Shown one piece after another: positions 1,144 to 1,220 of a stretch of DNA of 1,220 bases. Under the pieces are notes generated by a model. The model searched no databases. It was not told where the DNA came from and worked only from the letters and a program-made list of their open reading frames with translations. Within the stretch, counting starts at the first letter, position 1. Each line of letters begins with the position of its first letter. Made by a program: the position numbers and the translations under genes. Where the stretch lies: the NCBI RefSeq assembly GCF_003334315.1, contig NZ_QOWR01000120.1; one strand, 5' to 3'. The DNA is from Escherichia coli (GTDB lineage Bacteria; Pseudomonadota; Gammaproteobacteria; Enterobacterales; Enterobacteriaceae).

Positions 1144-1220
1144 ATGAGCGGAAAACCAGCGGCGCGTCAGGGAGATATGACTCAGTATGGCGGTCCCATT
1201 GTCCAGGGTTCGGCAGGTGT
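1144..1220 (+). CDS. PAAR-domain Rhs-family protein (T6SS-delivered polymorphic toxin), N-terminal 25 codons only, 3'-partial
   Basis: ATG at 1144 is preceded by an in-frame stop (TGA 1138-1140) and a Shine-Dalgarno-like GAAGGAA about 8 nt upstream. The translation MSGKPAARQGDMTQYGGPIVQGSAG contains the first PAAR motif (P-A-A-R, nt 1156-1167) and matches, from memory, the conserved N-terminus of E. coli RhsA/B/C/D-type proteins. Only 77 nt are visible, so the Rhs core and toxin domain cannot be assessed. Confidence 0.85.
   Translation, partial: MSGKPAARQGDMTQYGGPIVQGSAG

What the first reader, a model, noticed from the sequence alone, without database searches (positions are those of the whole stretch)
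1144..1220. Rhs starts directly with the PAAR motif and there is no adaptor gene between vgrG and rhs
The Rhs N-terminus begins MSGKPAARQGD..., so the PAAR domain is at the very start with no preceding prePAAR/transmembrane extension. No ORF for an Eag (DUF1795) or Tap/Tec (DUF4123) chaperone fits in the 66-bp spacer. In established models, Eag chaperones are needed for Rhs/PAAR effectors that carry N-terminal transmembrane helices. This architecture implies direct PAAR-VgrG loading without a dedicated chaperone encoded at this position (inference).
Basis: inference. Interest (0 to 1): 0.45.

Follow-up and report, generated by a model that had tools for sequence, protein, structure and literature searches.

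The report
Chaperone-free Rhs toxin, one-third PAAR
This is the ordinary, already catalogued E. coli vgrG-rhs junction, where the Rhs toxin has no membrane helices and needs no Eag chaperone; its "PAAR" is only the last of the three repeats that make a normal spike cap.

Summary
vgrG stops at 1075-1077, a 66-bp spacer follows, and rhs starts at ATG 1144 (MSGKPAARQGD...). An in-frame TGA two codons upstream rules out a longer N-terminus. The window is 100% identical to the chromosomal rhsE-locus vgrG-rhs island, and about 3000 of 5426 complete E. coli genomes hold the junction contiguously.

The full Rhs (1407 aa) is an "RHS element core protein". It has no TM-grade hydrophobicity and no strict prePAAR motif (Tyr replaces His). 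No Eag, Tap or DUF2169 gene lies within 20 kb or in the strain's main T6SS cluster. An EHEC vgrG-eag-rhsF island was positive on every one of these tests.

In 32 related loci from three bacterial families, vgrG either abuts rhs (about -4 to 141 nt) or is absent. No gene ever lies between them. So "no dedicated chaperone here" is supported and matches published classes (T6SS2-Rhs/Rhs-Nb; Pseudomonas Tse5).

The correction concerns "PAAR domain". Only residues 2-29 resemble PAAR, and they match the last of three repeats. The Rhs shell begins at residue 48. Relatives carry three repeats or a fused VgrG at the same position. How one third of a cone docks on the spike is unresolved. Overall: ordinary, already known.

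The parts
1..1077 (+). 3' part of vgrG (residues 345-702 of a 702-aa VgrG), including stop TGA at 1075-1077. It is a canonical spike with no appended adaptor-binding domain. It ends in a Pro/Asp-rich tail ...INWNCAASKSPPKTPDEKQDTPDMREY.
   Evidence: ORF 7-1077. Full gene at L001 18969-21077. NCBIfam TIGR03361 624 bits. Pfam Phage_GPD, Phage_base_V and Gp5_trimer_C only. The C-terminus aligns with the PAAR-capped spikes 7q5p and 4mtk.
1078..1143 (+). 66-bp vgrG-rhs spacer with no gene, no terminator-like site and no promoter-like site. The two genes are probably co-transcribed.
   Evidence: The same arrangement (75-bp spacer, same SD/start context) occurs in the main T6SS cluster of the same strain.
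1131..1135 (+). Shine-Dalgarno-like AAGGA, 8 nt upstream of the rhs ATG.
   Evidence: Sequence. AGAAGGAATTGAnTCATG is conserved at the second vgrG-rhs junction.
1138..1140 (+). In-frame TGA two codons before the rhs start. It excludes any N-terminal extension (prePAAR, TMD or further PAAR repeats).
   Evidence: Sequence. The in-frame upstream translation is only 'I' before M (L008, which is identical in this part).
1144..1220 (+). 5' end of rhs (codons 1-25 plus 2 nt) of a 1407-aa RHS element core protein. This is the start of the 47-aa N-terminal module, made of one PAAR repeat (residues 2-29) followed by a GVACSVCP anchor (residues 33-40). The Rhs shell starts at P48 (PVNPLLGAK), beyond the window.
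   Evidence: (NF041261, 2770 bits).
1156..1167 (+). Codons for P5-A6-A7-R8, the single PAAR motif. The following QGDMTQY gives AARxxDxxxY, one residue off the prePAAR consensus AARxxDxxxH.
   Evidence: The residue at the 'H' position is K/T/I/Y/V/S/M/F in 42 of 44 homologous loci.

Best explanation
The window spans the junction of a two-gene effector module of the E. coli type VI secretion system. vgrG encodes the spike, and the gene immediately downstream encodes a classical 'RHS element core' toxin.

The Rhs protein has a 47-residue N-terminal module with two parts. Residues 2-29 are one PAAR repeat, homologous to the last of the three repeats that make up a PAAR cone. Residues 30-47 are a conserved G-x-A-C-S-x-C-P anchor. 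By homology with Tse5, this anchor is threaded into the N-terminal plug (DUF6531) of the Rhs cage, which begins at P48.

The exposed repeat most likely attaches the cage to the tip of the VgrG trimer encoded upstream. The module has no transmembrane helices, so there is nothing for an Eag chaperone to shield, and none is encoded nearby.

Shown here: the gene layout, the absence of TM segments, prePAAR motif and adaptor genes, the one-repeat nature of the N-terminus, its strong conservation, and conservation of the vgrG-rhs abutment. Inferred: that the repeat is the VgrG-binding element, that the anchor sits in the plug, that cleavage occurs at N47|P48, and the stoichiometry on the spike.
For: Layout and identity: 100% match to the rhsE-locus island yncH|vgrG|rhs|ydcD in many E. 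coli genomes. 2993 of 5426 genomes hold the junction contiguously. RHS_core equivalog 2770 bits.

No TM or prePAAR: KD19 maximum 0.87, and AARQGDMTQY. The positive control EDL933 vgrG-Eag-RhsF shows AARLGDEIQH, a TM region at 64-105 (KD 2.13), three PAAR motifs, and a PAAR profile score of 49 bits.

One repeat only. All 120 listed close homologues have only DUF6531 as precomputed Pfam domain.

Homology to the last repeat of full PAAR-Rhs proteins: three-repeat relatives (Mixta L036, Nitrincola L080, Curvibacter L081, P0125/P0130/P0136 and others) carry the same anchor. Single-repeat proteins match only query residues 54-98 of the Mixta N-terminus.

The module position is a spike-attachment slot: Halomonadaceae relatives have VgrG fused in frame at exactly this point.

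Selection: 20 of 47 N-terminal positions are invariant, against 59 of the next 353.

Synteny: of 32 loci with enough upstream sequence, 15 have the vgrG stop about -4 to 141 nt from the rhs ATG and 17 have no vgrG within 10 kb. None has a gene in between, and none has an Eag-like ORF.

Precedent: the Tse5 N-terminal fragment (residues 1-47) is a 'cryptic PAAR-like' segment described as needed for secretion. Its residues 1-29 are disordered, residues 30-47 are anchored in the plug, and it is cleaved at K47|P48 (PMC10684867, PMC9637101, PMC7376260). Its sequence aligns with the E. coli N-terminus, and its shell is the closest solved structure. AF2 of residues 1-400 gives pLDDT about 28 for residues 1-53 and a confident plug and shell. 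E. coli T6SS2-Rhs/Rhs-Nb are a recognised Eag-less class with T6SS2-dependent antagonism (PMC6730261, PMC7216683, citing Ma et al. 2017).
Against: Nothing here tests binding, secretion or cleavage for this protein. A single repeat cannot by itself form the three-fold PAAR cone, so the physical mode of docking is unknown. Half of the related loci have no vgrG nearby, so adjacency is not obligatory. I did not scan the whole genome of the source strain for Eag, Tap or stand-alone PAAR genes, and other E. coli strains (EDL933) do carry an Eag in a different island. Eag detection in the comparative loci used one query sequence (phmmer) and could miss divergent members. TM prediction used a hydropathy scan, not a dedicated predictor. 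The downstream immunity gene ydcD is split at an A-run in the two strains examined. If that is real, it would argue the locus is silent or inactive there.
Confidence: 0.7

Rival explanations
1. The single PAAR repeat is not the main docking element. The variable Pro-rich C-terminal tail of VgrG (...INWNCG..PP.AP...PDMR[QE][YF]) binds the Rhs cage or plug and gives both affinity and specificity. The repeat is only accessory or a tip-sharpening leftover.
For: VgrG tails differ between paralogous vgrG-rhs pairs and often end in a conserved aromatic residue. In VgrG-Rhs fusions a comparable tail runs straight into the CSxC anchor with no PAAR repeat at all. One third of a cone is a small interface.
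Against: The repeat is the most conserved stretch of the first 400 residues. Several loci have VgrG with a very short tail ending ...PPDAPEQ yet carry the same Rhs N-terminus. The Tse5 N-terminal fragment is described as needed for secretion (PMC10684867), and the E. coli 'PAAR' is reported as needed for Rhs translocation (Ma 2017, as cited in PMC7216683).
Confidence: 0.15
2. A chaperone or adaptor encoded elsewhere in the genome, such as EagR of a vgrG-eagR-rhs island or an unrecognised protein, is still required in trans to load this Rhs.
For: E. coli genomes such as EDL933 carry a DUF1795 gene in another island (PMC7216683). I did not scan the source genome completely.
Against: Eag proteins bind TMDs and the prePAAR helix (PMC7773334), and this Rhs has neither. 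No Eag-like ORF occurs in 76 related loci. Strain 4/2-1 shows none in the T6SS cluster or at three rhs loci. Tse5 has a homologous N-terminus with no predicted transmembrane region and no Eag is mentioned for it in the papers read.
Confidence: 0.07
3. The locus is an inactive relic. Rhs elements persist as recombination substrates, the N-terminal motif is conserved by recent descent only, and no loading takes place.
For: K-12 rhsE is a pseudogene (my own knowledge). ydcD is annotated as frameshifted in both strains fetched. IS elements flank the island. Degraded copies exist in Citrobacter (L014, L017).
Against: The 1407-aa ORF is intact and scores full length against the equivalog model. The N-terminal module is invariant at 20 of 47 positions across families that are only about 50% identical overall. 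The ydcD break is a 1-nt difference in an A-run and is intact in other genomes.
Confidence: 0.08

Closest known systems
Tse5 (PA2684/RhsP1) of Pseudomonas aeruginosa with VgrG1c (PA2685)
   Same: Both have a 47-residue N-terminal fragment before the shell, which starts PVNP(M/L)LG(S/A)K at residue 48. Both have one PAAR-like repeat (xIxxGSxxVxxG) followed by a Cys-containing anchor (SACVP in Tse5, ACSVCP here). Neither has a TM region, and no Eag is described for Tse5 in the papers read. The Tse5 shell is the best sequence and structure match (PMC10684867).
   Different: E. coli keeps the literal P-A-A-R, whereas Tse5 has S-A-R ('lacks the signature motif', PMC9637101). The residue before the cleavage site is Asn here and Lys in Tse5. 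The toxin domains differ: DUF6973 here and a pore-former in Tse5. Cleavage and VgrG dependence are untested for the E. coli protein.
E. coli T6SS2-Rhs / 'neighborless' Rhs-Nb class (Ma et al. 2017, as summarised in PMC6730261 and PMC7216683); EHEC vgrG2 island
   Same: Same species, same locus type (vgrG followed directly by rhs, or rhs alone), same N-terminus, and no EagR. This is almost certainly the class the window belongs to.
   Different: None found. Those papers call the N-terminus a 'PAAR domain/motif' without noting that it is one repeat. I could not read the primary paper.
Class I prePAAR Rhs effectors with Eag chaperones (Salmonella Rhs1-SciW, P. protegens RhsA-EagR, EHEC RhsF-EagR)
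   Same: All have an Rhs cage with a DUF6531 plug, sit downstream of a vgrG, and share a PAAR-related N-terminal signature AARxxD.
   Different: Those proteins have AARxxDxxxH, then a TMD, then a PAAR domain (three PAAR motifs in total) and an adjacent DUF1795 gene. The window's Rhs has none of these four features.
Full PAAR-Rhs fusions without TMD (e.g. Curvibacter L081, Nitrincola L080, Mixta L036, P0130, P0136)
   Same: They have the same anchor and plug, and their last repeat aligns residue for residue with the E. coli N-terminus.
   Different: They carry three repeats (about 98-117 aa), covering PAAR profile positions 4-94 or 19-94. E. coli starts at the third repeat.
VgrG-Rhs fusions ('megaspike', Advenella 8QJA; bioRxiv 10.1101/2024.02.26.582050; Halomonadaceae loci L055-L082)
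   Same: Same plug and CSxC anchor. The spike-attachment element sits at the same position relative to the cage.
   Different: Attachment is covalent and there are necessarily three cages per spike. Here vgrG and rhs are separate genes with stop codons in between.

Membership tests
RHS element core protein (NCBIfam NF041261, equivalog) | Full-length profile score above the curated cutoff (2000 bits), from residue 1 | tested here: met
   2770 bits, residues 1-1258 aligned to profile 1-1261.
RHS element core protein (NCBIfam NF041261, equivalog) | YD repeats and an Rhs-associated core domain preceding a variable C-terminal toxin | tested here: met
   TIGR01643 in 7 stretches and TIGR03696 at 1181-1258. 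Pfam RHS plus DUF6973 in the C-terminal 256 aa.
Canonical PAAR domain (Pfam PF05488 / NCBIfam NF033420) | About 90-residue domain with three PAAR repeats, scoring above family thresholds | tested here: not met
   One repeat only, residues 2-29, aligned to profile 68-94 of 94. Score 12-17 bits against a 124-bit cutoff. Pfam E = 0.11. DUF6531 begins at residue 46.
Canonical PAAR domain (Pfam PF05488 / NCBIfam NF033420) | His/Cys ligands of the DxxxH type that coordinate the tip Zn ion | tested here: not met
   D11-x3-Y15. The position is K/T/I/Y/V/S/M/F in 42 of 44 homologous loci.
Canonical PAAR domain (Pfam PF05488 / NCBIfam NF033420) | Folds autonomously into a cone | tested here: inconclusive
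   AF2 pLDDT is about 28 for residues 1-53 in a 1-400 construct. Low confidence is not proof of disorder. It is consistent with Tse5 residues 1-29 being unresolved (PMC10684867).
prePAAR / Eag-dependent effectors (Ahmad et al. 2020, PMC7773334) | N-terminal AARxxDxxxH motif | tested here: not met
   AARQGDMTQY. The control RhsF has AARLGDEIQH.
prePAAR / Eag-dependent effectors (Ahmad et al. 2020, PMC7773334) | One or two transmembrane regions between prePAAR and PAAR | tested here: not met
   KD19 maximum is 0.87 in the first 300 aa and at most 1.56 in 44 homologous loci. The control scores 2.13 with 18 windows at or above 1.6. This was a hydropathy scan, not TMHMM.
prePAAR / Eag-dependent effectors (Ahmad et al. 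2020, PMC7773334) | Adjacent Eag (DUF1795/DcrB-like) gene | tested here: not met
   66-bp spacer. None annotated within +-20 kb. No phmmer hit in 76 related loci, while the EDL933 control hit at 1e-102.
Tse5-type Rhs (short N-terminal fragment with cryptic PAAR-like segment) | About 47-aa N-terminus, no TM, shell starting PVxPxxGxK, vgrG immediately upstream | tested here: met
   Shell motif at residue 48. vgrG stop is 66 bp upstream. The N-termini align. 8cp6_B is the top structural match.
Tse5-type Rhs (short N-terminal fragment with cryptic PAAR-like segment) | Autoproteolysis at residue 47|48 and VgrG-dependent export | not testable with these tools
   Needs protein chemistry and secretion assays. 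The residue before P48 varies (N/S/H/P/E/K) among homologues.
Tap (DUF4123)-tethered Rhs (RhsP2 type, PMC11582642) | DUF4123 adaptor gene next to the effector | tested here: not met
   No such gene in the island or the main cluster. The VgrG has only Phage_GPD, Phage_base_V and Gp5_trimer_C domains plus a Pro-rich tail. Whether the tail contains the helix-turn-helix motif those adaptors bind was not specifically tested.
VgrG-Rhs fusion | vgrG and rhs in one reading frame | tested here: not met
   TGA at 1075-1077 and in-frame TGA at 1138-1140.

The most novel reading that the evidence does not exclude
The single repeat is one third of a cap. Three Rhs N-termini, possibly from different rhs paralogues including the 'orphan' rhs genes that have no vgrG of their own, co-assemble on one VgrG trimer into a non-covalent PAAR-like cone. 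Each T6SS-2 shot would then carry up to three Rhs cages, like the covalent VgrG-Rhs 'megaspike'. In strains whose T6SS cluster has no stand-alone PAAR gene, this assembled cap would also be the only tip-sharpening element.
Probability: 0.2. Interest if true: 0.65.

Novelty: already known. Interest (0 to 1): 0.2.

Why it matters
The Eag-less vgrG-rhs pair is the standard, annotated arrangement in thousands of E. coli genomes, and it fits the published rule that Eag chaperones accompany transmembrane prePAAR effectors.

The useful outcome is a correction. The N-terminus of the classical enterobacterial Rhs core protein is routinely labelled a 'PAAR domain', but it is only the last third of one. 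Relatives carry a full three-repeat PAAR or a fused VgrG at the same slot. This makes a concrete question testable: how a one-third PAAR docks, and how many Rhs cages one spike carries.

Tried and rejected
1. An AF2 single-chain mimic of three VgrG tips plus three Rhs N-termini, joined by Gly-Ser linkers with an 8-row paired alignment, gave mean pLDDT 27 and pTM 0.18. It is uninformative about stoichiometry.

2. A five-sequence N-plug alignment that included the Eag-type Rhs was too divergent for the locus search. The scan was therefore run with short-N-terminus sequences only. As a result the comparative set is biased towards plugs of the PVNP(L/M)LG type and contains no Eag-type loci, so I could not build an Eag versus N-terminus-length contingency table. 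The EDL933 island served as the control instead.

3. A full-text search for the peptide MSGKPAAR found nothing.

4. Ma et al. 2017 is not held, so its results are cited second-hand.

5. I looked for a third vgrG locus in strain 4/2-1 at 660-760 kb. There was none, and rhsC has no vgrG.

6. I considered a cryptic PAAR in the small unnamed T6SS-cluster genes. The 74-aa ORF matches only weakly to a TssC fragment, and the others match nothing.

7. I considered a hidden regulatory RNA, terminator or promoter in the spacer. None was found.

8. I considered that the PAAR-like start is a prePAAR remnant awaiting a separate PAAR partner. I rejected this as the primary reading because the segment aligns with the last, not the first, repeat of full PAAR-Rhs relatives.

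Full report
**1. The observation**

Frame 1 is the 3' part of vgrG and ends ...PDMREY with TGA at 1075-1077. The next 66 bp (1078-1143) contain no usable ORF. An AAGGA Shine-Dalgarno-like element lies at 1131-1135. ATG 1144 opens MSGKPAARQGDMTQYGGPIVQGSAGV. No promoter-like or terminator-like site was found in 900-1220, and the spacer RNA does not fold better than shuffled sequence (z = -0.47). The two genes are therefore probably one transcript.

**2. Where it comes from**

The window is 100% identical to many E. coli chromosomes. 2993 of 5426 complete genomes hold the junction as one contiguous stretch. In strains 4/2-1 and ECCHD184 the context is yncH | 820 bp | vgrG (702 aa) | 66 bp | rhs (1407 aa) | ydcD | yncO | ISAs1 copies | pptA. 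This is the rhsE locus. It corresponds to the 'vgrG2 island' of EHEC (PMC7216683). No DUF1795, DUF4123 or DUF2169 gene is annotated within 20 kb on either side, and the 820-bp gap upstream of vgrG holds only 66-aa and 75-aa mechanical ORFs.

**3. The full Rhs protein**

It scores 2770 bits, from residue 1, against NCBIfam's 'RHS element core protein' equivalog. Pfam finds DUF6531 (the Rhs N-terminal plug) at residues 46-123, followed by RHS repeats. The PAAR_motif hit is not significant (E = 0.11, residues 3-20). The NCBIfam T6SS PAAR model gives 12-17 bits against a 124-bit cutoff and aligns residues 2-29 to profile positions 68-94 of 94 only. Against solved structures, residues 2-29 align with the third repeat of VCA0105 (4jiv_D residues 67-93, E = 0.008) and of SalCis10. 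From residue 48 (PVNPLLGAK) the protein aligns with the first residue of the Tse5 shell chain 8cp6_B, which begins after Tse5's N-terminal autocleavage. So only about 47 residues precede the cage, and only 28 of them are PAAR-like.

**4. TM helices and prePAAR, with a positive control**

The Kyte-Doolittle 19-residue maximum is 0.87 in the first 300 residues. The motif reads AARQGDMTQY, with Tyr where the prePAAR consensus AARxxDxxxH requires the Zn-ligand His (PMC7773334). As a control I fetched the EHEC EDL933 island vgrG | DcrB-related (Eag) | RhsF. RhsF has AARLGDEIQH at residue 54, a hydrophobic region at 64-105 (KD maximum 2.13), three PAAR motifs (53, 149, 281), and a 49-bit PAAR profile match. 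The tests therefore detect the Eag-dependent architecture where it exists, and they do not detect it in the window's Rhs.

**5. The rest of the genome**

The main T6SS cluster of strain 4/2-1 sits at aspV and is of the T6SS-2 type. It ends hcp | vgrG | 75 bp | RHS core protein (MGGGKPAARQGDMTRK...) | immunity gene | ISAs1. The junction has the same SD/start context as in the window. No PAAR, Eag or Tap gene is annotated there. A six-frame motif scan of the 41-kb rhsE region and of the 50-kb stretch holding the structural genes of the main cluster (L001, L003) found PAAR-type motifs in no real gene other than rhs, and NCBIfam found nothing relevant in the unnamed small ORFs of the cluster. rhsC in this strain has no vgrG at all. 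The EHEC in-silico study likewise reports that every PAAR-containing protein of EDL933 is an Rhs (PMC7216683).

**6. Comparative genomics**

A scan of one genome per species with the N-plug returned 76 loci. The sequence in frame upstream of the plug motif falls into classes:
- 44 loci have a 46-51 aa N-terminus with one repeat. These are Enterobacterales, Comamonadaceae and Ignatzschineria.
- Four loci have two or three repeats. Mixta L036 has 98 aa, Nitrincola L080 117 aa, Curvibacter L081 108 aa, and L045 77 aa.
- 23 Halomonadaceae loci have VgrG fused in frame to the Rhs with no PAAR repeat.

All classes share a Cys-containing anchor, usually CSxC(P), and the plug.

The multi-repeat N-termini score as near-complete PAAR domains: Curvibacter 70 bits over profile positions 4-94, and Mixta 47 bits over 19-94. 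An artificial triple copy of the E. coli repeat scores 55 bits over 20-94, whereas the native single copy covers only 68-94. A search of 1.8 billion representative proteins with the Mixta N-terminus shows that single-repeat Rhs proteins match only its residues 54-98, while other Rhs proteins match across all three repeats. The E. coli N-terminus is therefore the last repeat of a PAAR domain plus the anchor. 'ING-KPAAR' has become 'MSG-KPAAR'.

**7. Synteny and selection**

Of 32 single-repeat loci with at least 2.5 kb of upstream sequence, 15 have a vgrG stop about -4 to 141 nt before the rhs ATG, and 17 have no vgrG within 10 kb. None has an intervening gene. Upstream neighbours of the vgrG-less loci are unrelated housekeeping genes. 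No ORF in any locus resembles the EDL933 Eag by phmmer, and only the control itself was hit. The highest hydropathy in any single-repeat N-terminus is 1.56. The prePAAR 'H' position is K/T/I/Y/V/S/M/F in 42 of 44 loci. In an alignment of 36 distinct sequences that are 49-87% identical overall, 20 of the first 47 positions are invariant, against 59 of the next 353. The module is under strong constraint, so it is not a decaying remnant.

**8. Closest characterised relative**

Tse5 of P. aeruginosa associates with the VgrG1c spike for secretion (PMC10684867); that vgrG1c (PA2685) is the adjacent gene is my own knowledge. It has a 47-residue N-terminal fragment described as a 'cryptic' PAAR-like domain that lacks the literal PAAR motif. 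It has no membrane module. Residues 1-29 are unresolved and residues 30-47 are anchored in the plug, and it is cleaved at K47|P48. The fragment is described as necessary for secretion (PMC10684867, PMC9637101, PMC7376260). Fragments P0122 and P0124 give its sequence...MSARKSREVISTGSPTVHVGSSAVGLADRVSACVPLVGK|PVNP. This aligns with the E. coli N-terminus in both the repeat and the anchor. AlphaFold2 on residues 1-400 (36-row alignment, pTM 0.78) gives pLDDT about 28 for residues 1-53 and a confident plug and shell. Foldseek ranks the Tse5 shell first (E = 2.5e-24, 31% identity), ahead of P. protegens RhsA and the Advenella VgrG-Rhs.

For E. coli itself, the review literature summarises Ma et al. 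2017. It distinguishes EagR-chaperoned Rhs (vgrGO1-eagR-rhs) from a 'neighborless'/T6SS2-Rhs family, and reports T6SS2-dependent antagonism for members of the family (PMC6730261). The window belongs to that second, already recognised class.

**9. The VgrG side**

The VgrG has only the standard spike domains. Its C-terminal beta-helix aligns with the PAAR-capped spikes 7q5p and 4mtk. After ...INWNCG it carries a variable Pro/Asp-rich tail that often ends in PDMR(Q/E)(Y/F). Comamonadaceae have longer Gly/Ala/Ser tails that end in Phe. This tail may contribute to Rhs recognition, but I could not test that.

**10. Mechanism and what remains open**

The best-supported reading is direct, chaperone-independent attachment of the Rhs cage to its cognate spike through the exposed N-terminal repeat. 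There is no Eag because there is no TMD to protect. One repeat cannot form a three-fold cone, however. VgrG-Rhs fusions form spikes with three cages (691 kDa by SEC; bioRxiv 10.1101/2024.02.26.582050). So a non-covalent cap assembled from three Rhs N-termini is sterically conceivable, but nothing here shows it. My attempt to probe this with a single-chain AF2 mimic failed (pLDDT 27).

**11. Verdict**

The inference 'no dedicated chaperone at this position' is supported and agrees with published classes. The premise 'PAAR domain' needs correcting to 'one PAAR repeat'. The feature is an ordinary, annotated, very common E. coli arrangement, so both novelty and interest are low. The only point of wider interest is the unresolved docking mode of a one-third PAAR.

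Noticed in passing
L001 25351-25832 (ydcD, just downstream of the rhs of the window); A-run near 25503-25509: The cognate immunity gene ydcD is annotated as frameshifted in both strains fetched. The break lies at a run of A. Other genomes have 552 instead of 551 nt over the same stretch and an intact ydcD. It is either a homopolymer sequencing error or a real 1-nt variant that would leave an intact toxin without its immunity protein.
   Followed up: partly
L003 27000-50000 and L004 1-9000 (main T6SS-2 cluster of strain 4/2-1): The whole T6SS cluster has no stand-alone PAAR gene by annotation or NCBIfam, and a six-frame motif scan of its structural-gene part (L003) found none. 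The only PAAR-like sequences seen are the single repeats at the N-termini of Rhs proteins. PAAR is generally considered important for T6SS function (Shneider 2013, as summarised in PMC6730261).
   Followed up: partly
Loci L055-L082 (Halomonas, Vreelandella, Billgrantia and relatives): About 23 loci encode VgrG fused in frame to an Rhs whose plug and CSxC anchor are homologous to the E. coli Rhs. This is the same class as the published Advenella 'megaspike'. In some loci (L056, L067, L069, L071) the in-frame stretch is shorter (268-352 aa), which suggests frameshifted or split versions.
   Followed up: partly
L036 2214-2510 (Mixta tenebrionis rhs 5' end): The N-terminus consists of three near-identical 26-27 aa copies of the same repeat that E. 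coli has once. There is no His or Cys in the repeats, so this would be a Zn-free minimal PAAR. It could be a re-triplication of the single repeat or a relic of the ancestral state.
   Followed up: partly
Window 1003-1074 and the VgrG C-termini of about 25 loci: After the conserved ...INWNCG the VgrG proteins carry a variable Pro/Asp-rich or Gly/Ala/Ser-rich tail that frequently ends in an aromatic residue (PDMREY, PDMRQF...TF...AF). Its role is unknown. It might be a second contact with the Rhs.
   Followed up: no
L008, L030, L032, L045, L065: Contigs binned as Lentisphaerae, Collinsella, Oscillospiraceae, Propionibacteriaceae and Akkermansia MAGs carry enterobacterial-type vgrG-rhs junctions. 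L008 has the same Rhs N-terminus and N-plug as the window's gene. This is most likely mis-binning or contamination.
   Followed up: no
L014 and L017 (Citrobacter amalonaticus): These rhs copies have only 16 in-frame residues before the plug motif, so the N-terminal module has been destroyed. They are probably degraded paralogues in a genome with at least six rhs loci.
   Followed up: no
L001 24900-25367 (Rhs residues about 1259-1407): The C-terminal toxin domain matches Pfam DUF6973 (E = 1e-11), a family of unknown function. A moderately hydrophobic stretch follows the DPMGL cleavage motif (KD19 = 1.34 at 1264).
   Followed up: partly
Window 181-954, minus strand: A 257-aa antisense ORF lies inside vgrG. 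It is a product of mechanical ORF listing in GC-rich coding sequence and has no supporting evidence.
   Followed up: no
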